Positions 1-24,188 are shown, counted from the first letter of the stretch. The stretch: 64,000 nt of DNA from Alphaproteobacteria bacterium (GCA_965214705.1 CBDCCI010000002.1:2720001-2784000), one strand, 5' to 3'. The notes: generated by a model not told the origin, from the letters alone. Numbers and translations: made by a program.

Positions 1-1173
1 GGTGAAGCCGCCCCAGCCCCACTGGTTCTTCAACTCGTCGAAGCCGTTCTCCGCGTCCGCCCGATCCCGGTAGAGCTGGGCGATCGAGAGAACCTCCAGA
101 TCCAGAGACGTCGCCAGAACCGCAAACTCCCACACCTTGGTGCCAGGCTGCGCGTCGGCCCAGAAGAGATCGCCCTGACCGTCGTCTGCGCGCGTCAGCG
201 CCACCGTCCCGGGAAGCCGACGGCGCAGCACCACCACGCGACGCGTCCGGCTCCAGCCATGCAAGCGAAGCTCGGCCTCGATCCCCGACCAGCCCGGGCC
301 CGCGTCCGTCCACTCGTCCCGCGTCATCAGGCACTCGGCAAGCCGGCGCGCGCCCTTGGTCAGGCGCAGCTTGAACAGATAGTCGAGACCCGCCCCCTCG
401 CACGACGCCATGTTGCCCTCGTTGCCCCAGTCCTTGTCGCCCCGTACGAGCCGCGGCCAGTTCTCACGGCCGAGGCGGTCGAGCAAGGCCCACAGCGAAG
501 GCGCCGCGTTCTTCGAGTGGTGACGGTTCCCGGGCGCGACATCGACGTCCAGAACAAGGCGCGTGCCCGCCATCAGGAACGCATGGTAGGCATGCGACGG
601 ACGGCCCGGCTTCTTCGGGTTGTAGCTCACCACAGCCCCCTCCTGGTGGCCGTAGAGCGGCTTGATCGTTGTGTCGCAATCCAGAACCCACGGCTCGCTC
701 AGCAAGGGCCGCGCCGTGTCGTCGAGATGGCCGTGCAGCCAGGAAGCGCCGTCCTCCGCGTCGATCCGTCCCAGGCCGCGCCGAACCGAGTCCTCGCTCG
801 CCACCTTGGTCATGCCCAACAGCGACGGATTGACGCCGTCGCCGCGCAGCGCCGTGATGTGCGCGTAGCGCCAGTGTCCTGCGAGGGCCGACAGCATCAC
901 CGTCCCCAGCACGTCCCGCTTCGAGGGCGCGTTCGGGCTCGTGTAGTGCAGCGGGCAGTCCGCCACCAGCGCGTCGAAGCGGCCGCTGACTTTCAGGTAT
1001 TCGGCGAAGAACACCAGATGACCCAGCGGTGTGGCCGCCGCATCCGGGTCCCATTCGACGTGGACGGTGCCGCCGAAGGTGTCCACCTTCACGGCCTCTC
1101 GGGCGAGCTCCCGCGCAGTGCTGGGACCATCACCCGCAGGGTGAGCCTCAAGGGCCTGTTTCGATTCGCTCAT
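1..1173 (-). CDS. IS1380-family transposase, runs off the window start
   Basis: Manual translation from ATG 1173 gives MSESKQALEAHPAG..VDTFGGTVHVEWDP..TPLGHLVFFAEYL, and near base 1 QLYRDRADAENGFDELKNQWGWGGFT. Absent from the ORF track because there is no stop in the window. Confidence 0.85.
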   Translation of the reverse strand, partial: MSESKQALEAHPAGDGPSTARELAREAVKVDTFGGTVHVEWDPDAAATPLGHLVFFAEYLKVSGRFDALVADCPLHYTSPNAPSKRDVLGTVMLSALAGHWRYAHITALRGDGVNPSLLGMTKVASEDSVRRGLGRIDAEDGASWLHGHLDDTARPLLSEPWVLDCDTTIKPLYGHQEGAVVSYNPKKPGRPSHAYHAFLMAGTRLVLDVDVAPGNRHHSKNAAPSLWALLDRLGRENWPRLVRGDKDWGNEGNMASCEGAGLDYLFKLRLTKGARRLAECLMTRDEWTDAGPGWSGIEAELRLHGWSRTRRVVVLRRRLPGTVALTRADDGQGDLFWADAQPGTKVWEFAVLATSLDLEVLSIAQLYRDRADAENGFDELKNQWGWGGFT

Positions 1174-1231
1174 GCCCCTAGCCTACAAGGCTTTTTCGTG
1201 ATCGGCCCCGAAACCAACTGCGGGATTTAGG
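1..1231 (-). mobile_element. IS1380-like element, one end visible
   Basis: Terminus CCTAAATCCCGCAGTTGG (minus strand) at 1231; decarboxylase coding sequence resumes mid-codon at 1232. Confidence 0.7.
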
Positions 1232-2264
1232 ATCAATGCACCTGGCTGGTCGCGAGCGGCCCCAGCCAGCTGGAGCTGGTCGTCATCGACTGGTTCAGGC
1301 GTTGGCTCGGCTATCCGGAGGGCGCGGGCGGGCTCTTCACCAGCGGCGGCTCGGCGGCGAGCGTCGACGCCTTCGTCGCGGCGCGCGAGGCGGCGGGCCA
1401 CCCCGAACGCGCCACTGTCTACATGAGCGACCAGAGCCACAGCGCGCTCTCCCGCGCGGCGATGATCGTGGGCGTCCGCCGCGAGCGCATTCGCATGATT
1501 CCGAGCGACGCGGACTTCCGCATGGACATGGATGCCCTCGCCAGCGCCGTGGCCGCAGACCGCGACGCCGGCCTTAGCCCCATCGCGGTCGCCGCCAACG
1601 CCGGCACGGCGGGCACGGGCGCCATCGACCCACTTGAGGAGATGGCCGACTTCTGCGCGGCGGAAGGCCTCTGGCTGCATGTCGACGCCGCCTACGGCGG
1701 CTTCGCGGTGGTGACCGAGCGCGGCAAGCGGCTTCTCCGCGGCATCGAACGCGCCGATTCGGTCGGGCTGGATGCGCACAAGTGGCTCTTCCAGCCCTAT
1801 GAAGCGGGCTGCCTGCTGGTTAAGGACGAGAATACGCTCACGAACGCCTTCGGGGTCCGGCCCGACATCCTTCAGGACACGGTATGGGGAGCAAACCATC
1901 CCAACTTCTCGAACCTCGGCCTGCAGCTGAGCCGCTCGGTTCGTGCGCTGAAGGTCTGGATGTCGGTCCAGACCTTCGGCATGGCGGCGTTCCGGCGCGC
2001 TGTCGAGACGGGGATGCAGCTGGCCGAGACGGCGGAAGAGTACATCCGTGAGAGTCCAGTCCTGGAAGCCACAAGTACGCCGACGCTGGGGATCGTGTGC
2101 TTCCGGGTCAATCCGTCTGACGATGAACTCGACGAGGCGGTACTGGACAAGGTCAACAGGACGGTCCTCGCCCGCATGTTCTGGGATAATCCTGCGTTCA
2201 TGTCGTCAATGCTGCTGCACGGGACGTTCACGCTCAGGATGTGCATCATCAACCACACCACGAC
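1232..2264 (+). pseudogene. PLP-dependent group II (aromatic-L-amino-acid-like) decarboxylase, copy 1, central fragment
   Basis: QCTWLVASGPSQLE..FTSGGS..LHVDAAYGG..DAHKWLF..LRMCIINHTT. The 5' part is cut off by the IS1380 and the 3' part is displaced to 40756. Confidence 0.9.
2254..2264 (+). repeat. Left 11-bp direct repeat (attL-like core or target duplication) CACACCACGAC
   Basis: Identical to 40756-40766; decarboxylase homology stops exactly after it. Confidence 0.9.
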
Positions 2265-2427
2265 GCGCACCTACGGTGCTAATCTACTGATAAAGCGTTG
2301 CTTTTTTCCTCCTGCTTTGGCCGATGGCCGCGGAATCGGTCCCCGATTTCGCCCCGGCTGCAACGCAGCGCAGGAGGAATATCAATGGCGACGCTTCGCC
2401 TCAACCAACGCCGCGTCGACGCGCTCA
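2265..2427 (+). repeat. 163-bp imperfect inverted repeat, copy A (element end, leader, RBS and first 14 integrase codons)
   Basis: Ungapped match to the reverse complement of 6911-7073, about 26 mismatches by manual count. Confidence 0.9.
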
Positions 2428-2753
2428 AGCCCCGCAAGTCCGCCTACGACGTGCGCGACCGCGATCTCAAGGGCTTCGGCGTAAGGGTCCTGCCCTCGGG
2501 CGCCAAGCGCTACTTCGTCCATACCCAGCACCAGGGCCGGCGGGTCTGGAAGATCGTCGGCCAGGCCGGGGCCATCGGCGCCGACGAGGCCCGCGACCGG
2601 GCCAGGACCCTGGTGGCCTCGCTCCGCAAGGGCGACGGCGGCGAAGCCGCGGCGGCGCCGGACATCCCGTTCGAGACGGTCGCCGATGAAGTCTTGCGCC
2701 GCTACGCCCGGAACTGGAAGCCGTCCACGCTCAAGGTCAACCGCTACTACTAC

Positions 2754-4956
2754 CAGGGCGAATTTGTCCAAGCCTGATTTTTGAGTTCTGCGCTACGAGT
2801 TGACCTTGGGTCTGGTCAGCGCGCGCCAACCCTGCTATGGATTGAGGCGACTGGATTCGCGGTGTTCTGCTGCGGATCGGCTTCGAGCAGGGGGACGGTT
2901 TCTACGGTGGATCTTTCCGAGGTCGATGTCGCTGCTGTCCGGCCGGAGGACGAGGCCCGGTTCCGCGCGCTGATGGAGGGGCATCACTACCTGGGTGCGT
3001 CTGCGAAGGTGGGGGCGACGGCGTGGTACGTCGCCCATCGGCGCGGCGAGTGGCTGGCGCTGGCCGTGTTTTCGGCTGCGGCGCGCAAGTGCCGGGCGCG
3101 GGACGAGTGGATCGGCTGGGACTTCCGCACGCAGCACGGGCGGCTGCATCTGATCGCGAACAACGCGCGCTTCCTGATCCTGCCGGGACGGGGTGTTCCG
3201 AACCTCGGCTCGCGGGTGCTGGGGCTTTGCGCGCGGCGCTTGGCGCGCGACTGGCCGGCCCGCTTCGGCCACCCCGTGCTGATGCTGGAAACATTCGTGG
3301 ACGCGGCGAGGTTCCGGGGCACGGTCTACCGGGCGGCTGGATGGCTGGCGGTCGGCCAGACCCGCGGCTTCCGGCGCCACCGCTCGGGCTATGTCGCCGG
3401 CTCGACGCCGAAGCTTGTGCTGCTGCGCCCCCTGGTTCCCGACGCCTGCCGCCGGCTGTCCGCTGCCGGGCTGGATCGGGAGTTGTGGAAGAAAGGAGTT
3501 CCGAGAACCATGATCAGCGCCGCTCAGCAAGAGTCGCTCTACGCCTACTTCAAGGACATCGACGACCCCCGCACGCGCAAGGGACGGCGGCATTCGCTGC
3601 CCAGCGTGCTCGCGCTTGCGAGTGGCGCGACGCTCTGCGGCATGCGAGGCTGGAAGGCCATCTCCGAGTGGGTCGACGATCTCGGCGAGAAGGCGCTGGC
3701 CCGCTTCGGCGTGCGGCTGCGCGACGGGGTGCGCCGGCCGCCTTCGATGTCGACCATCCGCAATGTGGTGATCCGGGTGGACCCGGACCAGTTGGACGAG
3801 GCGTTGCGCAAGTGGCAGGAGGCCCACGGCTCAGGCGACGCGGCGCTTGCCATCGACGGCAAGACCCTGAGGGGGGCCATCGACGAGGACGGGACCCAGG
3901 CTCATGTCATGAGCGCGGTCGGGCACGAGACCAAGGCCACGCTCGCCCAAAAAAACTTCTCCTGAAAGTCGGGGCCGACGAGGAGACAAAGCGCACCAAC
4001 GAGATCGGCACCGTGACGGCGCTGGTGGACCTGATCCCGAACATCGCGGGCAAGACGGTCACGACGGACGCGCTGCTAACCCAGCGCAAGTTCGCCCGCT
4101 ACCTGCTCGACCGGGGCGCGCACTTCATGTTCATCGTGAAAGGGAACCAGAAGACCATGCGGGACGATGTGACGCTGCTCTTCGAAGAGGCGCCGGAGCG
4201 TGAGCCCGACTTCGAGGAGGAGGCCGCGCTGTCGCACGGACGCATCGAGCAGCGGGCAATCTGGACGAGCACGGAGTTGAACGGCTTTCTCGACTTCCCG
4301 GGCGTCGGCCAGGTCTTCATGATCGAGCGCTCCCGCCAGGACAAGAAGACCGGCGAGACCGGCACCGAGACCGCCTACGGGATCTCCAGCCACACGCCCG
4401 GCACGGCCAACGCGCAGAGCCTGCTCGCCCTCAACCGCGGCCACTGGTGCATCGAGAACAGCTCGCACCACTGCCTCGACTGGACCTGGGACGAGGACCG
4501 CAGCCGCATACGCACAGGCTTCGGCCCCGAGAACATGACCCGCCTGCGGCGCTTCGCCATCGGCCTGATCAAGGGCCGGGGGCTCGAGGTCGCCTCGACC
4601 GTGCGCAGGCTCGCCCGCAACGTCCGCGCCGTCCTCGACTTCCTGAAAATGACCGGGAACACCCAGCCGAGGACCGCAAAGCGCGCCGCGCCGGCCTGAA
4701 CCCCGGCGCCCGGCAAGCCGGGCGCAAAGATCGTACCTGCCCTCGCTCCCGACCACGCCGGTGGCGCGATCCATCATGTCGGGGCACCGCCAAATCGCGA
4801 CGGCACCGCCCGCACCGCCCACACGGTAATGCCAGAACCCTCTGACCGAACCGGATGCTCGGCCAGACCCCGCCGCAAACCCCGCAACAAAGCCGATCCG
4901 CACAACCCGTGGCCAGAACTCAACTGCCTACCAGCCGCTTGGACAAATTTGCCCTG
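2754..4956 (+). mobile_element. ISAs1-family IS, 2203 bp
   Basis: Terminal IRs CAGGGCGAATTTGTCCAAGC / GCTTGGACAAATTTGCCCTG; 10-bp target duplication CTACTACTAC (2744-2753, 4957-4966). Confidence 0.92.
2907..4699 (+). CDS. DUF4338(DruA-like)-fused ISAs1 transposase with probable -1 frameshift at the A7 run 3949-3955
   Basis: ORF1 has HHYLG..RDEWIGW..NNARFLILP..ETFVD..GTVYRAAGW, then DDPRTRKGRRH..AIDGKTLRG. The -1 frame continues KRTNEIGT..TTDALLTQ..VKGNQ..HGRIE..RGHWCIEN. Start codon uncertain. Confidence 0.8.
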
Positions 4957-5725
4957 CTACTACTACCGGAACCAGATACTACCCTGGTTCAAAGGACGCT
5001 CCATCGCCGGCATCGCCGCAACCGACGTACAGTGCTGGTTTGCATCCCTTCACGAGACCCCCGTGTCGGCCGACCGCTCGGCCCCCGTGCTCTCGGTCAT
5101 CATGCGCCAGGCCGAAGTCTACGGCTACCGGCCGGAGGGGACCAATCCGTGCGCGGGCATCAAGCGCTATCGGCGCCAAGGGCGGGAGCGCTTCCTGTCC
5201 ACCGCCGAGATAGGCCGGCTGGGCGAGGTGCTGGCACGCCACGAGGCGGACCAGCCGCAGGCCGTGGCGATCGTACGGCTGCTCCTGCTCACCGGTTGCC
5301 GGGCAGGCGAGATCGTCTCCCTGAAATGGCGCGACTACCGCGAGGGCAAGCTGTTCCTGCGCGACTCCAAGTCCGGTCCGCGCACGGTCTGGCTCTCGTC
5401 TGCCGCGTGCGCGGTCCTCGACGGCCTTCCCCGCAAGGCAACCTGGATCTTCCCCTCGCCGCACAGGGACAGCTGTCTGTCCGGAGCGACGGTCACTCGT
5501 GTCTGGCATTCCGTGAGGGCGGAAGCGGACCTGCGCGACGTCCGCCTTCACGATTGCCGGCACTCGTACGCCAGCATGGCGCTCGCGCAAGGCGAGACGG
5601 TCCTGACCATCGGCCGGCTGCTCGGACACCGCGATCCGGCGACGACGCTGAAGTACATCCATCTGTCCGACACCATGGTGCGCGAGGCCGTCGACATGGT
5701 CGGCGCTGCCTTGGAGGGCTGACAC

Positions 5726-6913
5726 ATGGCCGCGAGGAGGCGGCGTCTGACCGACGCCAGCGTGGCCCGGCTGATGCCGGCGGCCCGGGAGTACACGGTC
5801 TGGGACACGCGGCAGGCGGGTCTCGGCGTGCGGGTCCGTCCGTCGGGGCACCGCAGCTTCGTGTATTGCCGGAAGGGCGACGGCGGCGCGCGCAGGATCA
5901 CGCTGGGACCTGCCGCGGTGACGGGCGTCGAGGAGGCGCGCGCGCGGTGCCTGGATATCGAGACCGGAGCGCGGTCCGGCGGGCCGGAACGCGGAGCGGT
6001 GCCGACGTTCGGCAAGTTCGCCGCGGGACCGGGCAAGGCGTGTTTCGAGCGGGGCAAGCCGTCCACGCGAGAGGCCCAGGCCAGGGTCGTCGCCGCGCGC
6101 CTGCTTCCGGCCTTCGGCTCCCTGCCGCTCGACCGGATCGACCGGGCCGGCGTGACCCGCTGGTTCGACGAATACAGCCGCACCGCGCCGGGCGGGGCCA
6201 ATGAGGCACTGGGTCTGCTCTGTCGAATCCTGAACCATGCGATCGTCTGCGGCCATCTCCGGTCGAACCCGGCCCGGGGCATCAAGCGGAACCCCAGGCC
6301 GAAGCTCACGCGCTTCCTGTCGCGCGGGGAGATCCGCCGCCTTCACCGCGAGCTGGATCGTTACGCCGGCGCGCGGCCGTCGCGCGCGCGGCAGGCGGAC
6401 ATCATCCGCCTGCTGCTGCTGACCGGCTGCCGCAAGAGCGAGATCCGGACCCTGCGCTGGCGGGACGTGGACGGGGACACGCTCAATCTGGCCGACGCCA
6501 AGACCGGCCCGAGACGGGTTTTCCTCAATGCGCCGGCCCGCGCCATCGTGGAACGGCAGCCGCGATCCGGGAGTGCCCTCGTCTTCCCCTCGCCGATCGA
6601 CCCGGGTAGGCCACTGTGCTCCGACTTGCCGCTCTGGTACTCGGTGCGCAGGGAGGTCGGGGTCGAGGACGTGCGAATTCATGACCTTCGGCATACGTTC
6701 GCCAGCCACGCCGTGCTGCAAGGCGTCCCACTACCCGTTGTCTCGCGCCTGCTCGGCCACAAGCACCCGAGCATGACGCTTCGCTACGCGCACGTCGGCG
6801 ACCGCGAGACCGAGGCGGCGGCGGAGCGCATCGGCGCGGCCATCGCGCAGGCGCTGGGACTGGGCACTCAACTGCACCCCTCGGATGCGTCGAGCGGCAG
6901 CTCGTCCGGGTGA
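5726..6913 (+). CDS. Tyrosine recombinase 2 with N-terminal arm-binding-type domain
   Basis: RLTDASV..VWD..GLGVRVRPSG; catalytic LTGCR, DAKTG, IHDLRH, LGH, RYAH. Starts 3 bp after the recombinase 1 stop. Confidence 0.93.
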   Translation: MAARRRRLTDASVARLMPAAREYTVWDTRQAGLGVRVRPSGHRSFVYCRKGDGGARRITLGPAAVTGVEEARARCLDIETGARSGGPERGAVPTFGKFAAGPGKACFERGKPSTREAQARVVAARLLPAFGSLPLDRIDRAGVTRWFDEYSRTAPGGANEALGLLCRILNHAIVCGHLRSNPARGIKRNPRPKLTRFLSRGEIRRLHRELDRYAGARPSRARQADIIRLLLLTGCRKSEIRTLRWRDVDGDTLNLADAKTGPRRVFLNAPARAIVERQPRSGSALVFPSPIDPGRPLCSDLPLWYSVRREVGVEDVRIHDLRHTFASHAVLQGVPLPVVSRLLGHKHPSMTLRYAHVGDRETEAAAERIGAAIAQALGLGTQLHPSDASSGSSSG

Positions 6914-7073
6914 GCGCATCGACCCGGCGCTCGGTGAGGCGAACCGTCGCCATTGACATTCCTCCTGCTTTCCGTTGCAGCCGGGGCGAATTCGTGGACC
7001 GATTCCGTGTGTTCCGGCCAAGTCAGGAGGAAAAAAGCAACGCTAAGTCAGTATATTAGAGCCGTAGGTGCGC
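6911..7073 (-). repeat. 163-bp imperfect inverted repeat, copy B (encodes only MATVRLTERRVDAL)
   Basis: Reverse complement of 2265-2427; overlaps the TGA of recombinase 2. Confidence 0.9.
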
Positions 7074-7107
7074 CGAACACACACGACAATACAGGCGATG
7101 TGTTCTT

Positions 7108-8538
7108 CTACATCGCCTCTAGCCCGAATCGCTCGACCGCTTCGAGCGTCTCACGAACGTCGTCCCACGATGTGGTGTGGTTGATGATGCACATCCTGAG
7201 CGCGAACGTTCCACGCAGCATCGTCGACGACATGAACGCCGGATCGTCCCAGAACATGCGGGCGAGCACGGTCCTGTTGACCTTTTCCAGCACTTCCTCG
7301 TCGAGGTCAGCGCCCGCCGGATTGACCCGGAAGCACACGATGCCCAGCGTCACCGTGTTCAGGGACTCCAGGACCGAACTCGCGCGGACGTACTCTTCAG
7401 CCTGGGTGGAAAGTTCCATCCCTCTGGCGACCGCACGCCGAAACGCCGCCATCCCGAAGGTCTGAACCGACATCCAGACCTTGAGGGCGCGAACCGAGCG
7501 GCTCAGCTGCAGGCCGAGATTGGAAAAATTGGGGTGGTTCGCCCCCCAGACCGTGTCCTGAAGAATATCGGGTCGGACCGCGAATGCATCCGCGAGCGTG
7601 CTCTCGTCCTTCACAAGCAGGCAGCCCGCCTCGTAGGGCTGGAAGAACCACTTGTGCGCATCCAGTCCGACCGAATCGGCGCGTTCGATTCCGCGGAGAA
7701 GCCGCTTGCCGCGCTCGGTCACCACGGCGAAGCCGCCGTAGGCGGCGTCGACATGCAGCCAGAGGCCTTCCGCCGCGCAGAAGTCTGCCATCTCCTCCAG
7801 CCTATCGATGGTCCCTGTGCCGGTCGTGCCGGCGTTGGCGGCGACCGCGATAGGGCTGAGGCCGGCGTCGCGGTCTGCGGCCACAGCGCGAGCGAGGGCA
7901 GCCATGTCCATGCGGAAGTCCGCGTCGCTCGGAATCATGCGGATGCAGTCGCGCCGAATGCCGACGATGAACGCTGCGCGGGAAAGGGCGCTGTGGCTCT
8001 GGTCGCTCATGTAGACAGTGGCGCGTTCGGGGTGGCCCGCCGCCTCGCGCGCCGCAACGAAGGCGTCGACGCTGGCAGCCGAGCCGCCGCTGGTGAAAAG
8101 GCCGCCCGCGCCCTCCGGGTAGCCAAGCCAACGCCTGAACCAGTCGATGACGACCAGTTCCAGCTGGCTAGGCCCGCTTGCAACCAGCCACGTACTTTGG
8201 TTGATGTGATAGCCGGCGGCCGCGAAGTCGGCCACCACGCCGGGCCAGGTGGGCGACGACGGGATGAAGCCGAAGCAGCGTGGATGATCAAGACGTGTGG
8301 CGTAGGGGAGAATGTCGCGCGCCGCCCGCTCGATCACCTCTTCTGCGGACCTCCCGTCCTCTGGCGGGTCCTCGAGCAGCTGGTCTTCGAGGACCTGCCG
8401 GAACTCACCCTCCCAGGCATTCTCTCCCGGCAGGCTCTCGATCCGCTCTACCACGAGCTCAAGCGCCTTTTGCCCGAGGTCGAGCATCTGCTCACGCGAC
8501 ATCTGGAGTTCGGCAGCCGCCTGCGCGTCAAGATCCAC
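7108..8538 (-). CDS. PLP-dependent group II (aromatic-L-amino-acid-like) decarboxylase, copy 2
   Basis: HPRCFGFIP, FTSGGS, HVDAAYGG, DAHKW (PLP lysine). Close paralog of copy 1. The native start may be TTG at 10662, separated by IS1634. Confidence 0.9.
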   Translation of the reverse strand: MDLDAQAAAELQMSREQMLDLGQKALELVVERIESLPGENAWEGEFRQVLEDQLLEDPPEDGRSAEEVIERAARDILPYATRLDHPRCFGFIPSSPTWPGVVADFAAAGYHINQSTWLVASGPSQLELVVIDWFRRWLGYPEGAGGLFTSGGSAASVDAFVAAREAAGHPERATVYMSDQSHSALSRAAFIVGIRRDCIRMIPSDADFRMDMAALARAVAADRDAGLSPIAVAANAGTTGTGTIDRLEEMADFCAAEGLWLHVDAAYGGFAVVTERGKRLLRGIERADSVGLDAHKWFFQPYEAGCLLVKDESTLADAFAVRPDILQDTVWGANHPNFSNLGLQLSRSVRALKVWMSVQTFGMAAFRRAVARGMELSTQAEEYVRASSVLESLNTVTLGIVCFRVNPAGADLDEEVLEKVNRTVLARMFWDDPAFMSSTMLRGTFALRMCIINHTTSWDDVRETLEAVERFGLEAM

Positions 8539-8549
8539 CTCGGACTTGA

Positions 8550-10645
8550 CCCATCTTTGCCATTTTGGCGCGCGCCTGCGACCTAAGTAGTTGCGATGAT
8601 GGGCTGATTTTCTGGCCCATCTGGGATTATGGCACTACGTTTGTGCGCTCATCGCGACACTCCCGGGAGCACCGCCCGGCGCCTGTGGGGATCCACCGTG
8701 AGGCCCGCCGCCTGCGCGATGACGCGCGCCTCGGCGTCGGGTTGAGCATCCTGGCGGATGACGATGCGGTTTCCGTCCACCTCCCGGATGGTGGAGGTGA
8801 GACGCACCCAGCCCGCGAGCTTGTCGCGGATCGTACTCCAGCGGTCATGCAAGCCGTGCGCCGCCAGACGGGTTCGCAGCAGATGAACCGCGTGGTAGGC
8901 GAGGACGGCGATGAACAGGTGGGCGGCGATGCGCGAGGTCTTGGAGTGCCAGACCGGGCGCAGGCCGATTTCGGATTTCAGGCTGCGGAAGGTGGCCTCG
9001 AGCTCTGTGAGCTTCCAGTAGGTTCGGACCACGGTTTCAAGATCCCACTCGACGTGGCTGGTGCGCAGCACATAGATGCCCGCTTGGCGGTCGCGCTCGG
9101 CATGGAGAGCGTTGCGCCTCCAGCGGACCGCACTGGCCCGCCCCTTCTCTCCGGGCTCGACCTCGATGTCGTACTGACGGTGGACGCGCCTGTACCTTTC
9201 CTTCAGCCGGCCCAGCTTCTCCATCACCTTGGTGAACTGCTTGATGTGGTTCTTCTTCGACAGCCCGCCATGCAGGGCGCGCAGGGCGTCCTCGAAGTTG
9301 TGACGCTGACGGGCGAGCACGGCCTCGTCCTTCTGCTGGCGCTCATGGCTCCAGACGCACAGGTGCGCTTCGTCGTCCCCTGCCGCGAGACGCCAGGCGC
9401 GGGCATCGTGGCCGGCCCGGGTTTCGAAGGCGGCATCGGCTTCGCGCCCGGGCGGCGCCGAGACGCCGCGGCGAACGGTGATCCAGTGATAGCCGCCCGC
9501 CCGCAGCCAGGCGAGGTTGGCCTCGGTGGAGATGCCGGCGTCCATGATGACCGTGGGCCTGGGGGCGTTGCTGCCGCGCGCTTGGCATTCCAGCCGCCCG
9601 ATGGCGTCGGCGAGAGTGGCCGGCTCGGAGATGTTGCCGGGCAGGATCTCGCTGTGCTGCGGAAAGCCGGCCTGGTTCAGCGACAGGGCCAGGGTCACGA
9701 TCGGACAATCGTCACGCCTCTGCTTCGAGCGCCCGAAGCGGGCCAGCGCGGAGCTGGGCCGTCCGGTCATATGGGTGTTGGTCAGGTCGAAGAAGACGAT
9801 GGTGTCGGGGATGCCGAAGAGATCGCGCTCCCGGGCGCACAGCGCCTCTTCAAGCGCCGCGCGGTGACGCCACAAGAGGTCGCCGATGCGGTAGAGCTTG
9901 CTGAGCGTGAGCGACTTGCCGCTGTCGACATCGAGCAACTCCAGGGTCGCGCTGTTCGCGCTCAGCCAGCGGAAGGCCTCGCGCTCGCTGGAGGGATGGA
10001 TCATGCGCGCGACCACCAGTGCCGCCGCGATGCGTGCGTCGCGCTCACTTGCGCCCAGCCTCTCCAGCGTCTCGATGAAGCGAAGGTCGTCAAGCGCGGC
10101 GAGAGCCAGGCGCTCGCAGCCCACCGAGCGGACCTGTTCGTGGGAGAGGCTATCGAGACGGACCGTGGCCAGGTCGCTCTCGTCCCCGGGCCGCGACGCG
10201 CCGAGATCGCGGGCGTGAAGCCGCCGTACGACGTCCTCGGCGACGGGGCGCAAGGCGGCATCCGGCTCCAGCAGCGGCTCGCTGCCGGCGAGAAGGGTTT
10301 CGATCAGAAGCGCCAATTCGCGCCATTGCTCCTCGGGCACACCGAAGTCGGCGCCGAGATTGAGGAGCGTGACCTGGCGCACCCTTCCGCCGATGCGTTC
10401 GCTGCGCACGAGGCGGTAGGTGGCATAGCGCTCGCCACCGTCTCCGCGACCGGTGAGGGTTTTGCGAATGAACATGGCGGCAGGGTCACGGACAGTTTGC
10501 GGACTGTCAAGGAGCGCCGGCCCACAGACCAAAGATTATGGCACTACAATGGACTTCCCAAAACACAATCCAACAAAATCAGTGCCTTAGATCCCAAAGG
10601 CTACCCAAAATCAGGCCTTCGGGACCGAAAAGTGGCAAAGATGGG
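8550..10645 (-). mobile_element. IS1634-family IS
   Basis: IRs CCCATCTTTGCCA / TGGCAAAGATGGG, flanked by TTGA on both sides. Confidence 0.85.
8649..10475 (-). CDS. IS1634-family transposase
   Basis: MFIRKT..VRQVTLLNLG..FFDLTNT..FGRSKQRR..IMDAG..LEATFRSLKSEIGLRPVWH..AHLFIAVLAY. Confidence 0.9.
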   Translation of the reverse strand: MFIRKTLTGRGDGGERYATYRLVRSERIGGRVRQVTLLNLGADFGVPEEQWRELALLIETLLAGSEPLLEPDAALRPVAEDVVRRLHARDLGASRPGDESDLATVRLDSLSHEQVRSVGCERLALAALDDLRFIETLERLGASERDARIAAALVVARMIHPSSEREAFRWLSANSATLELLDVDSGKSLTLSKLYRIGDLLWRHRAALEEALCARERDLFGIPDTIVFFDLTNTHMTGRPSSALARFGRSKQRRDDCPIVTLALSLNQAGFPQHSEILPGNISEPATLADAIGRLECQARGSNAPRPTVIMDAGISTEANLAWLRAGGYHWITVRRGVSAPPGREADAAFETRAGHDARAWRLAAGDDEAHLCVWSHERQQKDEAVLARQRHNFEDALRALHGGLSKKNHIKQFTKVMEKLGRLKERYRRVHRQYDIEVEPGEKGRASAVRWRRNALHAERDRQAGIYVLRTSHVEWDLETVVRTYWKLTELEATFRSLKSEIGLRPVWHSKTSRIAAHLFIAVLAYHAVHLLRTRLAAHGLHDRWSTIRDKLAGWVRLTSTIREVDGNRIVIRQDAQPDAEARVIAQAAGLTVDPHRRRAVLPGVSR

Positions 10646-11073
10646 TTGAAATCGTCAGGCAAGGGGTCACCTGTCTTCCTTGTCACCGGTCGATCCGCCA
10701 TTTTCACTTCGTACTTTCATTCCCAGATCCCAACACGTGCGCCGCGGGAAGGAAACTCCGAGCAGCAAATGCGGCGCGCCGCTGTATGCGGCCAACAACG
10801 AAAACCCATCCCGGAAACGGCGGTCACACGGTAGTAGAGACGGCAACATGGAGCACTGCCCCGGACGGGACGCTGCGCTCTCCACGCCCAAAGCCCCAGC
10901 TTCGACGTCGCAGACCGGGTTCTCACCTTGTTTGGCGTGATCAGATAGTTCATTGGCGCGTTCGGGTGATGATCTGGCACGTCTTTGCCCCCACATTTCT
11001 GGCTACGACAACACTTGGCAACAACGCGGGCGATCTGGCCTGCAATCAAGACCCTATTGAAAGGAGACCCAAC

Positions 11074-12088
11074 GTGAGCCAAACAATATTCATTACCGGC
11101 GCTTCGAGCGGCATCGGCAGGGCGACGGCGATTTTCTTTCAGGAAAGGGGATGGAACGTCGTTGCGACGATGCGCCGTCCCGAAAACGAAAAGGAGCTGA
11201 CCCAACTCGACAACGTGTTCGTTACGGCACTCGATGTTCAGAACCCCGCTTCGATCGCCGATGCGGTGGAAGCAGGCATCGAGCGATTCGGCAAGATCGA
11301 AGTGCTGTTGAACAACGCGGGTTACGGATCCTACGGCGTGCTCGAAGCCACGCCGATGGAAAAGGTGCGGCGGCAGTTCGACGTCAACGTGATCGGCCTG
11401 CTGACCCAACTCGACAACGTGTTCGTTACGGCACTCGATGTTCAGAACCCCGCTTCGATCGCGATGCGGTGGAAGCAGGCATCGAGCGATTCGGCAAGAT
11501 CGAAGTGCTGTTGAACAACGCGGGTTACGGATCCTACGGCGTGCTCGAAGCCACGCCGATGGAAAAGGTGCGGCGGCAGTTCGACGTCAACGTGATCGGC
11601 CTGCTGGAAACCACCAAGACCGTGCTTCCCCATTTCCGAGCCAATGGGGGTGGCGCCATCATCAATGTTTCTTCGGCGGCAAGATGACCTTTCCGCTCGG
11701 CACCCTTTACCACGGCTCCAAGTTCGCAGTGGAGGAACTATCCGAGGCTTTGAGCTTCGAGATGGAAGCCATTGGGGTGAAGGTCAAGATCGTCGAGCCG
11801 GGCATAATCAACACCGACTTCAGCGGCCGCTCTCTCGACATCAATAACGATGAGAGCCTGACTGAATACCAGGAGTTCGTCGGCAAGATCTTCACTGCCT
11901 TTGGCTCGCGGACGGACCCCGGATCGGAGCCGGAGACGGTCGCCGAGGTGATCTACGACGCCGCAACCGACGGATCGAACCAGCTGCGCTACACCGCCGG
12001 GCCCGACGCCGTCGAGATCATCGCCAGCCGCAAGGCTGCTGACGACGCGACTTTCATCGGCGGCATCAAGGACCAATTCGGGCTTTGA
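11074..12088 (+). pseudogene. Short-chain dehydrogenase with ~204-bp internal tandem duplication and frameshifts
   Basis: ITGASSGIG, NNAG (twice), YHGSK. 11197-11400 is repeated at 11401-11603 with a 1-bp loss; second frameshift near 11675. Confidence 0.85.
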
Positions 12089-12108
12089 TTCGCCGGGGAG
12101 TGACAAGG

Positions 12109-13710
12109 ATGAAAGCGAAAGAGGCCGTTGACCGTTTGGACCCGAACAAGTGGTCCCGAACCCCGCCCGCAGAGCGCCTGCATTTCCTTGAGCAAGTGCG
12201 CGGGAACCTCAAGACGTATGGCAACGAGCTCGCCGCCGCCGACACGAGGATGAAAAACGGACTGATGGGCGAGACCCTGTTCAACGATGCGCTCTCGAAA
12301 GTTGCCACCATGGTGCCGATGGCGAACACCGTCACCGCGGCGATCGAGCTCTACGAAGAGCTGGTGCACGGCGAGATGCCAGAACCGCTGGCGATCACCA
12401 AGATTGACAAAGGCCTCTACGACATCAATGTGTTTCCGTCGTCGGCGAAAGACCGACTGATGTACGGTGATCGCACGGAAGTGCTGCGCGTGACAGGCGA
12501 GCCGAAACAGATCGATCCCATGGATAAGCCCGCCGGCATCGTCGCTGTGCTTGGAGCAGGCAACTACTCGTCGTCGCTGGAAATGCTCAAGGCGATGTTC
12601 TTCGAGAACTGCACCGTCGTGCACAAACCCCACCACTTGAATGCCGCGACGGATGCGGTGTGGGAGAAGATTATGGAGCCGCTGGTGGAGCACGGCGTGC
12701 TCAGCTTCGTCGACCACGACCAAGGGCGCGACCTCACCGTCGATCCGCGGCTCAGCAAGATCTACTTCACGGGTGGCACGAGTACGGCGCTGGCAATCAT
12801 GAAAGCCACCGATACGCCGATGGTCAGCGAGTGCGGTGGCAACAACCCCTGCCTGATCGTGCCGGGAGAACGGCCGTGGACCGACAAGGAAATCACCCAT
12901 CAGGCCCAGCAGATAGCCACGATCTCCAAGATGAACGGCGGCGCCGTCTGCGGTCGGGTCCAGACGGTGGTGACCTCCAGGAACTGGCCGCAGCGGGAAG
13001 CATTCCTGGTCGCGCTGAGACGGGCAATAGCCGAGGATACGCCGGCAGCGGGCACCTATTATCCCGGGTCCGACGAAACCGCCCAGGCCTTCCGTGAAGC
13101 CTACCCGAACGCCGAGATCCTCGAGCCGGAGGGCGGAAGATTCGAGCATGCCGATTTCGTGCTGATCACCAACGCCGAAGAGCAAGGCTACGCCACGGCC
13201 CACGAGGCCTTTTGCCAGATCATCGGCGAAGTACCGCTGGACACGGAGGCGAATGCGGATGACTTTCTGCCCAAGGCGGTCGCCTTCTGCAACGCCCACC
13301 TGCTCGGTACGTTGGCAGGCTGCATCCTGATCGACGAAGACACGAAGAAGGTGCATCAGGCCGCGCTGGATCAGGCAGTGACCGACATGGAGTATGGGGC
13401 GATCGCGATCAACACCATGCCCCCCTTTATCTTCCTCAGCCCTTGGCTGACCTGGGGAGGCAACGAGGAAGGCAAAGAGTTCGTTTCCGGCCACGGCAAT
13501 TTCGGCAACGGGATGAATTTCGAGAATGTGCAAAAGTCGATCATGACCGCCGGTTTCATGTCTCCCGGACACATGATCCAGACCAACAAGACTGCCTTCG
13601 ATCGCATGGCGACCAACATGGCGCGCTATGCCGTCGAACCGAACTGGATGAACCTCATCCGGCTGATGGGCGGCGCCGTCGCTGGTTCTTTGCGCCACAA
13701 GGATTTCTAG
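12109..13710 (+). CDS. Aldehyde dehydrogenase family protein
   Basis: GAGNY, YFTGG, ECGGNNP, NGGAVC (catalytic Cys region), EAFC. Confidence 0.8.
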   Translation: MKAKEAVDRLDPNKWSRTPPAERLHFLEQVRGNLKTYGNELAAADTRMKNGLMGETLFNDALSKVATMVPMANTVTAAIELYEELVHGEMPEPLAITKIDKGLYDINVFPSSAKDRLMYGDRTEVLRVTGEPKQIDPMDKPAGIVAVLGAGNYSSSLEMLKAMFFENCTVVHKPHHLNAATDAVWEKIMEPLVEHGVLSFVDHDQGRDLTVDPRLSKIYFTGGTSTALAIMKATDTPMVSECGGNNPCLIVPGERPWTDKEITHQAQQIATISKMNGGAVCGRVQTVVTSRNWPQREAFLVALRRAIAEDTPAAGTYYPGSDETAQAFREAYPNAEILEPEGGRFEHADFVLITNAEEQGYATAHEAFCQIIGEVPLDTEANADDFLPKAVAFCNAHLLGTLAGCILIDEDTKKVHQAALDQAVTDMEYGAIAINTMPPFIFLSPWLTWGGNEEGKEFVSGHGNFGNGMNFENVQKSIMTAGFMSPGHMIQTNKTAFDRMATNMARYAVEPNWMNLIRLMGGAVAGSLRHKDF

Positions 13711-13755
13711 GCGGTCGAACTGGCGAAGCTGAACCCGGCGCGGTAGGAAGAGAAG

Positions 13756-14751
13756 GTGGTTACATACGACTACGCGCTCGACGTAGGCTGGCGCGCGCTC
13801 CTCGCCGATCTTGGAGTATCCCCCGCAGATGTGCTGCGGCGTGCGGCTTTACCGGAAGACCTTTTCTCGCGGCCGGATGCGCGACTCGAGCCACAGGCGT
13901 TCTATCGCTTTTGGGAGAGCCTCGAAGCCGAGTTCGACGATCCGCTGTGGCCTATTCACCTGTGCCAGGCCGTACGGTCGGAATCATTCTCCCCTCCCCT
14001 GTTCGCCGCCATGTGCAGCTCGAACTTCCTCTCCGCAGCGAAGAGGATCAGCCAGTACAAGCCGCTGATCGGACCTCTGCGGCTCGACGTCGCCGAAGAA
14101 GGGGAATTGGTCCGGCTCACACTGGAATGGTTGGGGTCAGCATCGAATCCCCCCGTTTCACTGGTGACCGTCGAGCTATTATTCTTCGTGTGCTTGATCC
14201 GCATGGCGACGCGAGCCCCGATCTGCCCAATCGAGGTCACCACGCCTGTTCCCCCGGAACCTGCCCAACCATATGAGGAGTTCCTTGGCGCGCCCGTCAG
14301 TAGTTCTGCTACGCATACCCTGCGCTTCAGCCGCGACGACGCTTTGCTTCCGTTTCTTACGGCAAGCGACGGCATGTGGCAGGCGTTCGAGCCCGAGTTG
14401 CGCCGCCGACTCGCTGAGCTCGACGAATCGGCCAAGATGTCGGAACGCGTGCGTGCGGCGTTGCTGGAATGCCTGCCAAGTGGGCGAATATCGATAGACT
14501 CGGTGGCCAAAACGCTCGCGCTGAGCAAGCGTACGCTCCAGCGCCGACTGAGCGACGAAGACACGAGCTTCCAGTTTGTCCTGAAAGCCACGCGTGAGGC
14601 ACTTGCCCGCCACTACCTGCAACAGACAACGCTGCCGGCAGCGGAGATCTCCTTTCTGCTCGGCTTCGAAGAGCCGAACTCGTTCTACCGAGCCTTCAGC
14701 GACTGGACGGGGCAGACGCCGGACAGTGTTCGCCAAGCTGCGCTCCATTGA
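13756..14751 (+). CDS. AraC-family regulator
   Basis: C-terminal VAKTLALSKRTLQRRL..ISFLLGFEEPNSFYRAFSDWTG. Confidence 0.9.
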   Translation: MVTYDYALDVGWRALLADLGVSPADVLRRAALPEDLFSRPDARLEPQAFYRFWESLEAEFDDPLWPIHLCQAVRSESFSPPLFAAMCSSNFLSAAKRISQYKPLIGPLRLDVAEEGELVRLTLEWLGSASNPPVSLVTVELLFFVCLIRMATRAPICPIEVTTPVPPEPAQPYEEFLGAPVSSSATHTLRFSRDDALLPFLTASDGMWQAFEPELRRRLAELDESAKMSERVRAALLECLPSGRISIDSVAKTLALSKRTLQRRLSDEDTSFQFVLKATREALARHYLQQTTLPAAEISFLLGFEEPNSFYRAFSDWTGQTPDSVRQAALH

Positions 14752-14769
14752 TACTCAATCTCAACGGGC

Positions 14770-15062
14770 CGGCGATTGCAGATATCATTCCCAACGCACA
14801 CGCCTCACAGGCCATCGTGAACGCGTCGATCTTGCCGCAGCTATTCATCTCCGATGTGTTCATCCGGATGGAGAACGCGTCGGCGTGGCCCACGACCTTC
14901 GCGGACGTGTTCCCGGTGCGACACATGGAGCTGGCCCGACATGCATGCTTCGAACCCTTTGAGACCGTAAGTGGATTCGAGTGGGTGCTGGCCGTCATGG
15001 CGACATGGCTGGTCGGTGGACTGCTGGTCACGGTGCGCTCTTTCCGGTGGGAGCCGCGCTGC
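14770..15062 (+). pseudogene. ABC-2 type permease C-terminal remnant
   Basis: AIVNASILPQLFISDVF..FADVFPVRH..LAVMATW..FRWEPR; no N-terminal half. Confidence 0.5.
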
Positions 15063-15093
15063 TGGGCGCCGCTCCGGCTGGCGCAGACTTAAA

Positions 15094-17185: not shown

Positions 17186-17421
17186 CTTAAAGCCCGGCGC
17201 CGCTCAACTCCTCCTTCAGTGCGGGCAATCGACCAAAGCGTTCTCGCAACTCGGCAATGAAGCGGGTCTGCGGGGGGAGGGGCTCGGCAACGACCCCTCC
17301 TACCCTGCCGGAAAAACTCGCAGCACCCGCACGCTCCGAGCGTACCATTGAACAGAACTGTCACGGCCGCGCAACGATGCGCGCATCCAGTCTTGAAACC
17401 CAGTTCCTCGACATCCCCGAG

Positions 17422-17979: not shown

Positions 17980-18186
17980 GAGGATGTTCCTGACTGATGC
18001 GTCACGATCATGCGAAACAAACGCTGCAATATGCGAGGCGAAATTTCCGCTCGCGTGGCCTCGGCTCCACTAAACCCACGGAAAGCGATGCTACACGCTG
18101 TTCGGCGTTTCTTACAGATTACTCCGTATTGCAATCACCACGTGCTCGGCGGCGATGCCTCCCGATCGCGCCGATCATGCAGGCTC

Positions 18187-21442: not shown

Positions 21443-21498
21443 GGATGAGACGGCCGCCAGGGCCTTGGCGGGCCTTCCTGTACGCGGGGGTCAGGTCG

Positions 21499-24182: not shown

Positions 24183-24188
24183 GCGCCG

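What the first reader, a model, noticed from the sequence alone, without database searches (positions are those of the whole stretch)
2265..7073. Recombinase duo bracketed by 163-bp inverted repeats that each contain the integrase start: invertible switch or autonomous module
Seen: 2265-2427 and the reverse complement of 6911-7073 align without gaps (about 84% by hand count). Both hold the leader, AGGAGG RBS and first 14 codons (MATLRLNQRRVDAL vs MATVRLTERRVDAL). Homology begins exactly at GCGCACC, the base after the 11-bp repeat. The 11 bp outside copy B are different (GTGTGTGTTCG). Inference: GCGCACC is a real element end. Crossover inside the repeats would flip the pair and keep recombinase 1 in frame under the other leader, with the unused leader facing antisense. 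Different outer 11-mers suggest flexible targets with an 11-bp duplication, which is unusual for tyrosine recombinases.
Basis: partly seen in the sequence, partly recalled or inferred. Interest (0 to 1): 0.85.

Follow-up and report, generated by a model that had tools for sequence, protein, structure and literature searches.

The report
Rearrangement scar inside two-integrase mobile island
The inverted repeat is real, but it is two left ends of two different copies of a multicopy mobile island that carries a pair of integrases, one end working and one a stump, and not a built-in invertible switch.

Summary
The 163-nt inverted repeat is real (137 of 163, ungapped) but is not a designed bracket.

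Copy A is the left terminus of a 38.5-kb integrative, mobilisable island (2265-40755). The island split a native PLP-decarboxylase gene. Three relatives have that gene uninterrupted, with one copy of the 11-mer that flanks the island twice here.

The island belongs to a multicopy family: 38 full left ends in this genome, and 48 of 80 loci in other species. Its layout is a left terminus plus two tandem DUF4102-type tyrosine integrases, then variable cargo, then a TrwC relaxase/NikA module and a different ~60-nt right terminus. It inserts at ACACC-N5 with a 10-11-bp direct repeat.

Copy B is a stump of a different family member, closer to k4 and k3 than to copy A. It lies in the cargo beside a foreign decarboxylase paralogue and has the only non-canonical flank of the 38.

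No other pair has an inverted left end after int2 (0 of 25 here; 0 of 48 elsewhere). Contigs of four runs show no other orientation, and int1 is broken by an IS.

The family itself seems undescribed and is mechanistically odd.

The parts
1..1232 (-). IS that runs off the window start and interrupts the native decarboxylase gene (decarbA). The 5' part of the gene lies beyond it at G000:C3:2719210-2719557.
   Evidence: Pfam DDE_Tnp_1_4 and DDE_Tnp_1 for 1-1173(-). Relatives join window 1233 directly to window -442. The 5' part was found.
1233..2264 (+). Middle part of decarbA, the native syntenic PLP-dependent decarboxylase gene, cut at 2264 by the island.
   Evidence: Pfam Pyridoxal_deC, 7.9e-54. 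It is 98.9% and 96.6% identical to the uninterrupted genes of relatives G006 and G017, which have the same flanks.
2254..2264 (+). Left copy of the 11-bp direct repeat CACACCACGAC (target sequence).
   Evidence: It occurs once in the empty sites of 3 relatives.
2265..2427 (+). Copy A: left terminus (IRL) of the island. It holds the terminus GCGCACCTACGG, the inner box GCGTTGCTTTTTTCCTCCTG (2295-2314), the RBS (2372-2377), the int1 ATG (2385) and the first 14 codons.
2385..5722 (+). int1, a tyrosine integrase (Arm-DNA-bind_3 plus Phage_integrase). It is interrupted by an IS: coding parts are 2385-2754 and 4968-5722.
   Evidence: Pfam. The uninterrupted sister k3 aligns to 2265-2756 and 4960-6834.
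2755..4955 (+). ISAs1-like IS inside int1. Its transposase has DruA-like, DDE_Tnp_1_assoc and DDE_Tnp_1 domains and is broken near 3860-3965. The 12-bp target duplication GCTACTACTACC is at 2743-2754 and 4956-4967.
   Evidence: (I3). A 98-99.6% identical copy in k12 has about 0.2 kb more.
5726..6913 (+). int2, a tyrosine integrase (Arm-DNA-bind_3, Phage_int_M, Phage_integrase). Catalytic R, HxxR, H and Y are kept. The last ~52 nt (6862-6913, including the stop) come from a cargo block, not from the int2 lineage.
   Evidence: Pfam; alignment to HP1 integrase 1aih; tail analysis.
6911..7073 (-). Copy B (k7): a stump of the left terminus of a second, diverged family member, holding terminus to codon 14 only. 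Its flank is non-canonical.
7074..7107 (-). 34-nt spacer between copy B and the decarbB stop. Its origin is ambiguous: native 3' sequence or right-end-like.
7108..8538 (-). decarbB, a full-length paralogous PLP-decarboxylase gene carried inside the island. It is 85-87% identical to the genus orthologues and 88% identical to decarbA.
   Evidence: Pfam, 8.3e-66.
8549..10650 (-). IS with a 627-aa transposase-like ORF (8649-10532). The right boundary is approximate. The same IS type cuts int1 of family copy k4.
   Evidence: k4 junction; joint 2469->8549. No Pfam hit.
6862..35341 (.). Variable cargo of the island. It holds the copy B stump, decarbB, ISs, an SDR gene with an internal 204-nt duplication, an aldehyde-dehydrogenase-like gene, AraC, NnrU, a cytochrome-D1-like beta-propeller, an IS5-like IS, a PEP-mutase fragment, an IS91-like Y2 transposase plus integrase, glyoxalase, hydrolase, TetR and a 1261-aa ORF without a family.
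   Evidence: It is unrelated to the cargo of sister k3.
35342..40687 (.). Conserved right module, 91% identical to k3 and 90% to k12. It holds the TrwC relaxase/helicase gene (35863-39042, +) and three NikA-like ribbon-helix-helix genes (40262 down to 39137, -).
40623..40755 (+). Right terminus (IRR): the box CAGGAGGAGATTGCAACGCTG (40623-40643), which is inverted relative to the IRL box, followed by 7.1 copies of CTCATGTTTTGT (40672-40756).
40756..40766 (+). Right copy of the 11-bp direct repeat CACACCACGAC.
40767..40866 (+). 3' end of decarbA, in frame with 1233-2264 once the island is removed.

Best explanation
The two arms are left termini of two different members of one family of mobile islands.

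The family layout is: left terminus (GCGCACC..., an inner box, then the promoter/RBS/start of int1), two tandem paralogous DUF4102-type tyrosine integrases, variable cargo, often a TrwC relaxase with NikA-like genes, and a ~60-nt right terminus that shares only a ~25-nt box with the left one. Members insert at ACACC-N5 sites, and that 10-11-mer then stands on both sides.

Copy A is the working left terminus of a 38.5-kb member (2265-40755) that split the native decarboxylase gene. Copy B is all that is left of another member: its terminus to codon 14 of its int1. It sits in the cargo beside a foreign decarboxylase paralogue, and its inner break is joined to a truncated cargo block 52 nt past the int2/cargo boundary. 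The inverted repeat is therefore a rearrangement scar with no designed function.

Shown: the island limits, the empty site, the family anatomy, and the uniqueness of copy B. Inferred: that int1 and int2 together carry out insertion and excision, that the relaxase makes the island mobilisable, and how copy B was cut down (by deletion or by aberrant recombination).
For: Island limits. The 11-mer is at 2254-2264 and 40756-40766, and decarbA resumes at 40767. Three of three syntenic relatives examined (G006, G017, G008) have the uninterrupted gene with one copy of the 11-mer.

Family. There are 15 copies of the 163-nt segment and 39 profile hits, of which 38 have a full 5' end. Of those 38, 35 have ACACC at -10..-6, 2 have ACACG, and copy B has TGTGT. 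Eleven elements of 13.9-58 kb have an exact 10-mer repeat next to a right-end box, against 6 of 38 chance hits on the control side. There are two further before/after comparisons: k11 inside the int2 of k15, and an empty copy of the k10/k12/k13 target. Sister k3 shares both end modules but not the cargo. In other species, 48 of 80 loci have a left end, all 49 hits are sense-strand and upstream of int1, and none is inverted downstream.

Copy B. It is closer to k4 (89.6%) and k3 (87.1%) than to copy A (84.0%), and 91% identical to left ends in relatives G006 and G014. decarbA is 97-99% identical to orthologues, while decarbB is only 85-87%. The int2 tail continues as CGCACCCGTTTCATCC in G017, G008 and m5 but is cut at 6913 here. 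Of the other pairs here, 0 of 25 have an inverted leader.

Proteins.
Against: How copy B came to lie 34 nt behind a decarboxylase paralogue, in the same orientation as copy A behind decarbA, is not explained. Two independent insertions within 95 nt of homologous positions is a coincidence unless the family prefers this gene region. In none of the 40 relatives searched was a left end joined to a decarboxylase gene.

As a complete left terminus with both boxes, copy B could in principle still be bound by the recombinases.

Only contigs, not raw reads, were available, so rare inversion is not excluded. The unitig that supports the int2/copy B joint has only 27 nt on the int2 side, under the tool's 31-nt rule.

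Seven of the 38 left ends had a 10-mer match downstream without a right-end box, and 20 had none. So for most copies the right end was not found.
Confidence: 0.8

Rival explanations
1. Invertible switch. Crossover within the 163-nt arms flips 2428-6910 and puts int1 under the other leader, as a regulated on/off or promoter-swap device.
For: The arms are inverted and 84% identical, and they include the start of int1, so a crossover inside them would keep int1 in frame.
Against: The arrangement is not conserved: 0 of 25 other pairs here and 0 of 48 loci elsewhere have it. int1 is broken by a 2.2-kb IS, so nothing would be switched. The longest exact run is 21 nt, while the flanking decarboxylase arms have runs of 68 and 59 nt and would be the likelier RecA substrate. 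The arms are not each other's closest relatives. No strand-changing joint was seen in contigs of 4 runs from 2 studies, although contigs drop rare variants.
Confidence: 0.04
2. Autonomous minimal module. The stretch 2265-7073 is a small transposable unit that uses an inverted left end as its right end.
For: Copy B carries both the terminal GCGCACC and the inner box that true right ends share with left ends, so it might be recognised as an end.
Against: There is no direct repeat at 7074: the flank there is CGAACACACAC, whereas CACACCACGAC recurs at 40756. No second copy of such a unit was found in this genome, in 40 relatives or in 80 loci of other species. All 11 delimited elements are 13.9-58 kb with a distinct right terminus. 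Relatives lack the whole 38.5 kb at this site, not just 4.8 kb.
Confidence: 0.04
3. In-situ inverted duplication. The junction 'decarboxylase + left end' was copied in inverted orientation by a replication or repair error at this locus.
For: The inverted similarity extends over about 1.2 kb on each side: 1028 nt plus 163 nt.
Against: The arms differ by 12-16%. decarbA is 97-99% identical to orthologues in relatives, while decarbB is 85-87% identical to all of them. Copy B is closer to other family members than to copy A. The arms therefore have different origins.
Confidence: 0.02
4. Same scar, different origin. Copy B was not cut down by a random deletion. It was joined to the cargo by the element's own recombinases acting on a secondary site, which captured the neighbouring host gene (decarbB) as cargo.
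For: The joint shows the microhomology TGA(G)CGCA. The copy B side reads GCGCATC, which matches the terminus GCGCACC at 6 of 7 positions. The undisturbed cargo side reads CGCACC directly after the TGA. The outer edge of copy B is exactly the element terminus but has the only non-canonical flank of 38. The int2/cargo boundary is a repeated breakpoint: 97%-identical heads carry unrelated cargo, and the same cargo block is fused to int2 genes of two classes.
Against: The motifs are short and could match by chance. No reciprocal product was found in the window (0 matches to the expected continuation). No other example was found among 38 left ends here or 48 loci elsewhere.
Confidence: 0.2

Closest known systems
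[quoted passage not shown] 2017, PMC5385486, passages read)
   Same: The recombinase operon sits at one end of an island, followed by variable cargo of tens of kb and a poorly conserved far end. The island is bordered by short (10-11 nt) repeats, and insertion often falls in or at the end of genes.
   Different: GInts have four core genes (ginA, ginB, ginC, ginD), and their att repeats are imperfect hybrids. Here there are two paralogous DUF4102-type integrases, with no third or fourth core gene behind int2 (homology ends at the int2 stop). The repeats are perfect and target-derived in 11 elements. There are dozens of insertion sites sharing only ACACC. A relaxase module is frequent.
Strand-biased circularising integrative elements, SEs (PMC10214605, passages read)
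   Same: SEs have two tyrosine recombinases at the left end, imperfect terminal inverted repeats and a transposon-like spread. No other nicking enzyme is needed.
   Different: The SE core is intA-tfp-intB-srap, with one large recombinase, 13-19-bp inverted repeats and a 6-bp footprint copied from the donor flank. Here the two genes are adjacent (gaps of 6-25 nt) and of equal size. The repeat is 10-11 bp and identical to the new target.
Tn554 and RIT elements (as summarised in PMC10214605 and PMC3414803, passages read)
   Same: Both are multi-recombinase mobile units driven by tyrosine recombinases. RITs have terminal inverted repeats.
   Different: Tn554 has TnpA, TnpB and TnpC and one preferred site. 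RITs have three recombinases, are about 3.5 kb long and carry no cargo. Neither has the anatomy found here.
IntSXT-subgroup (P4-like, DUF4102) integrase islands and integrative mobilisable elements (PMC8138268, passages read; PMC5704250, term search only)
   Same: The domain architecture of int1 and int2 matches (PF13356 plus PF00589). The integrase is at the island edge, direct repeats flank the island, and a relaxase occurs without a seen mating-pore system.
   Different: Those elements use one integrase and one conserved attB next to a housekeeping gene. Here a tandem pair is conserved across species, and one genome holds 38 left ends at many sites.
Recombinase-driven invertible switches (fim-type or shufflon-type; recalled, no call)
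   Same: Inverted repeats flank a segment next to recombinase genes.
   Different: In real switches the repeat architecture is conserved among homologues and both orientations coexist. Here the arrangement is unique to this locus and one arm is a gene stump.

Membership tests
Invertible DNA switch | Inverted repeats flank the segment | tested here: met
   The arms are 163 nt and 84% complementary.
Invertible DNA switch | The architecture is conserved in homologous loci | tested here: not met
   None of 25 other pairs in this genome has it, and none of 48 loci in other species.
Invertible DNA switch | Both orientations are present in a population | tested here: inconclusive
   No strand-changing joint was seen in contigs of 4 runs from 2 studies. 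Raw reads were not available, and contigs drop rare variants.
Invertible DNA switch | Inversion changes expression of an intact gene | tested here: not met
   int1 is interrupted by a 2.2-kb IS.
Integrative (mobilisable) genomic island driven by tyrosine recombinase | Integrase gene(s) lie at one edge | tested here: met
   int1 and int2 start 120 nt from the left terminus.
Integrative (mobilisable) genomic island driven by tyrosine recombinase | Direct repeats flank the island and relatives have an empty site | tested here: met
   The 11-mer is present twice here and once in each of 3 relatives that share the flanks.
Integrative (mobilisable) genomic island driven by tyrosine recombinase | A relaxase is present without its own mating-pore genes | tested here: inconclusive
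   A TrwC relaxase and 3 NikA-like genes are present. No T4SS or coupling-protein family appeared among the 33 island ORFs or segments scanned, but not every ORF was scanned, and a 1261-aa ORF has no family.
Integrative (mobilisable) genomic island driven by tyrosine recombinase | Excision to a circle and transfer | not testable with these tools
   This needs PCR for the circle junction and mating assays.
GInt | A four-gene core ginABCD with three integrase-like genes | tested here: not met
   Only two integrase genes are present, and homology among copies ends at the int2 stop.
GInt | Bordered by 10-11-nt repeats | tested here: met
   The repeats are 10-11 nt. They are perfect in 11 elements and imperfect (8 of 10) in k3.
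SE | Core intA-tfp-intB-srap and a 6-bp donor-derived footprint | tested here: not met
   There is no gene between int1 and int2 (gaps of 6-25 nt). The repeat equals the new target.
RIT | Three recombinase genes in a unit of about 3.5 kb | tested here: not met
   There are two genes, and the elements are 13.9-58 kb.
Tn554-like | TnpA, TnpB and TnpC with a single preferred site | tested here: not met
   No third core gene was found. The 38 left ends sit at many sites.
IntSXT subgroup of tyrosine recombinases | N-terminal DUF4102 arm-binding domain plus a catalytic domain with R, HxxR and Y | tested here: met
   PF13356 and PF00589 match both proteins. The int2 catalytic residues align with HP1 integrase. 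The int1 residues were read by eye only. No phylogenetic placement was done.

The most novel reading that the evidence does not exclude
The family is a further, undescribed class of tyrosine-recombinase transposon. A pair of paralogous DUF4102 integrases makes genuine 10-11-bp duplications of ACACC-N5 targets, which the usual 6-8-bp crossover model does not produce. The 12-nt tandem arrays exactly at right junctions (k1, k15) would be footprints of that mechanism. Copy B would then be a fossil of how cargo is acquired: an aberrant recombination between a left end and a secondary GCGCAYC-like site at the int2/cargo boundary that pulled a neighbouring host gene into the island.
Probability: 0.2. 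Interest if true: 0.7.

Novelty: new variant of a known kind. Interest (0 to 1): 0.4.

Why it matters
The finding as written does not matter: it is a one-off scar.

What surrounds it may matter to people who study mobile DNA. One 7.9-Mb genome holds 38 left ends and about 34 TrwC relaxase genes of islands that move with two tandem integrases. The same module occurs in many uncultured Alphaproteobacteria. Simple tandem pairs at about 40% identity also sit, unremarked, on plasmids of Shewanella and Paracoccus.

Perfect target-derived 10-11-bp repeats are hard to reconcile with textbook tyrosine-recombinase chemistry. A tractable member would therefore allow a test of how multi-recombinase elements such as GInts, SEs and Tn554 really transpose.

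The case is also a practical warning. Inverted repeats that include a gene start can be two ends of two elements.

Tried and rejected
BIM elements were rejected as a comparator. They pair one recombinase with an SMC-like protein.

k4 was considered as a second 'solo' left end and rejected. Its int1 is simply cut by an IS of the type at window 8549-10650.

I looked for a reciprocal product of an inversion in the window, namely the continuation CGCACCCGTTTCATCC or its complement. There were 0 matches.

I looked for a minus-strand integrase pair to the right of decarbB, as expected if a permuted circle had been inserted. No further family integrase lies in the window. The integrase at 24192-25229 is of another type and sits beside an IS91-like gene.

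The 34-nt spacer was compared with right-end termini and with native 3' sequence of relatives. Both fit in part (13 of 15 with gaps by eye; 11 of 18), so it is unresolved.

The terminal signature was sought in the 40%-identical pairs of Shewanella MR-1 and Paracoccus pTAV1. There was no profile hit, only one loose motif match, and nothing is claimed.

On sequencing runs, only Logan contigs were on offer. X1 and X2 have little or no cover over 6874-7407, which says nothing either way. X17-X20 may be the source sample and are not independent support. The loose end at 6913 and the joint 2469->8549 fit paralogous copies (the cargo block and k4), not this locus.

I did not use structure prediction, complex prediction, fold tools, RNA tools or the large protein searches, because no open question needed them.

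Literature: four searches found no description of tandem DUF4102 integrase islands with ACACC-N5 repeats. I read passages only of PMC3414803, PMC10214605, PMC5385486, PMC5704250 and PMC8138268. Supplements were not opened: GInt Tables S2 and S3, the SE additional files, and the appendix figures of PMC8138268 may hold att sequences or tandem cases that bear on novelty.

Full report
OBSERVATION. The inverted repeat exists as described. Arms 2265-2427 and 6911-7073 are 163 nt, ungapped and 84% complementary (I2), with identity 0.840 and a longest exact run of 21 nt. Each arm holds a leader, an AGGAGG and 14 codons, MATLRLNQRRVDAL versus MATVRLTERRVDAL. Chance is excluded: blast gives E=1.9e-48.

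A 1028-nt, 88% inverted repeat (1234-2261 versus 7172-8199) lies directly outside the 163-nt one (I1). The alignment of both junctions shows one long inverted similarity, 'PLP-decarboxylase gene + leader', with a 95-nt stretch present only on the right side. Pfam identifies both flanking genes as Pyridoxal_deC and both internal genes as integrases with an Arm-DNA-bind_3 (DUF4102) domain and a Phage_integrase domain.

THE 163-NT SEGMENT IS THE LEFT END OF A REPEATED ELEMENT. The genome (7.9 Mb, 3 contigs) holds 15 copies at 79-100% identity. In all 15, homology starts at the same base, GCGCACCT. In 14 of 15 the flank has ACACC five bases outside it, and copy B is the exception.

A profile search finds 39 left ends. 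Of these, 38 have a full 5' end: 35 have ACACC at -10..-6, 2 have ACACG, and copy B has TGTGT. tblastn shows dozens of tandem integrase pairs at about 80%, 60% and 40% identity.

WHERE THE WINDOW'S ELEMENT REALLY ENDS. The 11-mer left of copy A (CACACCACGAC, 2254-2264) recurs once in the window, at 40756-40766, and the missing 3' end of the left decarboxylase gene follows it. Relatives G006, G017 and G008 have this gene uninterrupted (98.9%, 96.6% and 89.9% identity to 1233-2265). They have the same upstream and downstream neighbours and a single copy of the 11-mer. So a 38.5-kb unit (2265-40755) was inserted into a native gene, decarbA. An IS at 1-1232 hit decarbA a second time.

The right decarboxylase gene, decarbB, is only 85-87% identical to every orthologue in the genus and lies inside the island.

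ANATOMY OF THE FAMILY. Two more before/after comparisons agree with the first.
- Element k11 sits inside the int2 gene of element k15. ACACCGTCTG(G) is on both sides and occurs once in uninterrupted int2 genes.
- k10, k12 and k13 occupy the same site of a repeated sequence, of which an empty copy exists.

Eleven elements of 13.9-58 kb have an exact 10-mer repeat next to a recognisable right end. The control search on the outer side gave chance hits for 6 of 38. Sister k3 has an imperfect repeat, ACACCATCAG / ACACATTCAG.

Right ends carry an AGGAG..GCAAC box about 60 nt from the repeat. This box is the inverted counterpart of the box at 2295-2314. Their termini (..GTGC..GGACC..TTGTC) differ from GCGCACC. 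True right ends therefore share about 25 nt with left ends, not 163 nt at 84%.

The window's island shares its left module (83-86%) and a 5.3-kb right module (91%) with k3, but not the cargo between them. The right module encodes a TrwC relaxase/helicase and three NikA-like ribbon-helix-helix proteins that read inward from the right end. The genome has 34 TrwC hits longer than 250 aa.

int2 keeps the catalytic R, HxxR, H and Y in an alignment with HP1 integrase. The corresponding int1 motifs are visible in its translation (read by eye). int1 of the window is interrupted by a 2.2-kb ISAs1-like IS with a 12-bp target duplication.

THE SAME ANATOMY IN OTHER SPECIES. A scan of one genome per species returned 80 loci, mostly from uncultured Alphaproteobacteria. 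In 48 of them the left-end profile hits, giving 49 hits in total. All 49 are on the sense strand just upstream of int1 and all begin with a (G/C/A)CGCACC-like terminus. All have ACACC in the flank or a one-base variant of it. None is inverted downstream of int2 within the up to 6 kb held.

Simple overlapping tandem pairs at about 40% identity occur on plasmids of cultured bacteria: the Shewanella oneidensis MR-1 megaplasmid and Paracoccus versutus pTAV1. They are annotated only as site-specific integrases. I could not show the terminal signature there.

WHAT COPY B IS. It is a left end cut after codon 14.
- It is closer to family members k4 (89.6%) and k3 (87.1%) than to copy A (84.0%), and copy A is closer to k2, k3 and k4 than to copy B.
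- Left ends 91% identical to it head normal elements in relatives G006 and G014.
- Its outer flank is the only non-canonical one of 38.
- Its inner break abuts the int2 stop codon.

That stop belongs to a cargo block, not to int2. The same block (GGGACTGGGC...GGGTGA, then CGCACCCGTTTCATCC...) follows int2 genes of another class (m5) and of relatives G017 and G008. In the window it is cut after 52 nt. So the joint at 6913/6914 is a secondary rearrangement inside former cargo.

None of the 25 other complete pairs in this genome has an inverted copy of its upstream 480 nt within 1.5 kb after int2. The method does find the window's repeat. None of the 48 loci elsewhere has one. No relative among the 40 searched joins a left end to a decarboxylase gene or to an int2 end.

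Contigs of four public runs from two studies show the copy B/decarbB junction without differences in two runs of one study, and no strand-changing joint. They are contigs, so rare variants are not excluded, and these runs may be the source sample.

A crossover within the arms would indeed keep int1 in frame, but int1 is IS-broken. The best substrate for homologous inversion is the decarboxylase pair, with exact runs of 68 and 59 nt, rather than the 163-nt pair at 21 nt.

HOW IT MOST LIKELY WORKS. Shown: the family inserts as a unit bounded by the left and right termini at ACACC-N5, with that 10-11-mer on both sides. Inferred: int1 and int2 together bind the termini and the arm-type repeats and carry out excision and insertion, and the relaxase with its NikA-like partners lets a helper's mating pore transfer the excised island.

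The perfect, target-derived repeats do not fit a 6-8-bp crossover with a heteroduplex, which would leave one old and one new spacer. This part of the mechanism is open.

The origin of copy B is also inferred. One possibility is that a second member sat beside decarbB and was deleted down to a stump. The other is that the element's own recombinases joined a left end to a secondary GCGCAYC-like site (microhomology TGA(G)CGCA).

COMPARISON WITH KNOWN SYSTEMS. The known groups of tyrosine-recombinase transposons are ICE/IMEs, SEs, GInts, RITs and Tn554 (PMC10214605, passages). The closest in layout are GInts: recombinase operon at one end, cargo, and 10-11-nt bordering repeats (PMC5385486, passages). 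But the four-gene core is absent here. The SE, RIT and Tn554 cores are also not met.

By domain content, int1 and int2 fall in the DUF4102 'IntSXT' subgroup (PMC8138268, passages). Its members normally work singly at one conserved site. BIM elements are unrelated (PMC3414803, passages). Four literature searches found no description of this family. Supplements were not seen.

VERDICT. The switch and module interpretations are not supported. The element-end and 11-bp-repeat inferences are supported. The locus is a scar inside a member of an apparently undescribed two-integrase island family, which I class as a new variant of a known kind with moderate interest.

Noticed in passing
window 40672-40756; G000:C1 right junction of k15 (about 360.4 kb): Two of 11 delimited elements have 12-nt tandem arrays exactly at the right junction. 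In k1 the element's terminal 12-mer CTCATGTTTTGT is repeated 7.1 times just inside the repeat. In k15 the target 10-mer plus 2 nt (CGACACCACCCG) is repeated about 6 times just outside it. ACACC in the flank and GCACC in the left terminus are also 12 nt apart. No explanation was found.
   Followed up: partly
window 6858-6913; G000:C3:592243 (m5); L028, L029: The int2/cargo boundary is a recurrent breakpoint. Six heads of the ~60% class are 97% identical, yet the cargo behind them is unrelated in m2 and m6, only weakly and partly similar in m4, and partly shared in m3 and m5. One cargo block is fused in frame to int2 genes of two different classes, where it supplies their last codons and stop.
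   Followed up: partly
window 7074-7107: The spacer between copy B and decarbB (…ATCGCCTGTATTGTC plus 11 nt) resembles right-end termini of k3 and k12. That would make it a right-end/left-end joint like a circle junction. It also aligns 11 of 18 with native 3' sequence of a relative's decarboxylase gene.
   Followed up: partly
window 7108-7125: decarbB ends at a TAG where relatives read TCG and continue for some ten or more codons, so the island's paralogue is slightly shortened. decarbA, the native copy, is broken twice, by an IS and by the island.
   Followed up: no
window 2755-4955; k12 in G000:C1: The IS inside int1 has a transposase with an N-terminal DruA-like (Druantia) domain fused to ISAs1-type domains. 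A 98-99.6% identical copy in k12 has about 0.2 kb more, so the window copy carries a deletion that breaks the frame near 3860-3965.
   Followed up: partly
window 11196-11606: A perfect tandem duplication of about 204 nt (63 nt plus 145 nt, both 100% identical) lies inside a short-chain dehydrogenase gene and splits it into two overlapping ORFs.
   Followed up: no
G000 whole genome: The mobile load is extreme: 38 full left ends of this family, dozens of tandem integrase pairs, 34 TrwC relaxase hits longer than 250 aa, 58 NikA-like hits, and many IS copies. k10, k12 and k13 sit in the same site of a sequence that is itself repeated.
   Followed up: partly
window 22944-25229: An IS91-like Y2 transposase (Y2_Tnp, Zn_Tnp_IS91) lies next to a SAM-like-domain integrase on the minus strand. 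This is another recombinase pair of a different kind inside the cargo.
   Followed up: no
window 31111-34893 (-): A 1261-aa ORF just left of the conserved right module has no Pfam family. The only hit is a sub-threshold MycE_N match.
   Followed up: no
L111 (Shewanella oneidensis MR-1 megaplasmid 32496-34993); L112 (Paracoccus versutus pTAV1 27945-30475): Overlapping tandem integrase pairs about 40% identical to int2 occur on plasmids of cultured bacteria and are annotated only as site-specific integrases. In pTAV1 a BrnT/BrnA toxin-antitoxin pair follows directly.
   Followed up: partly
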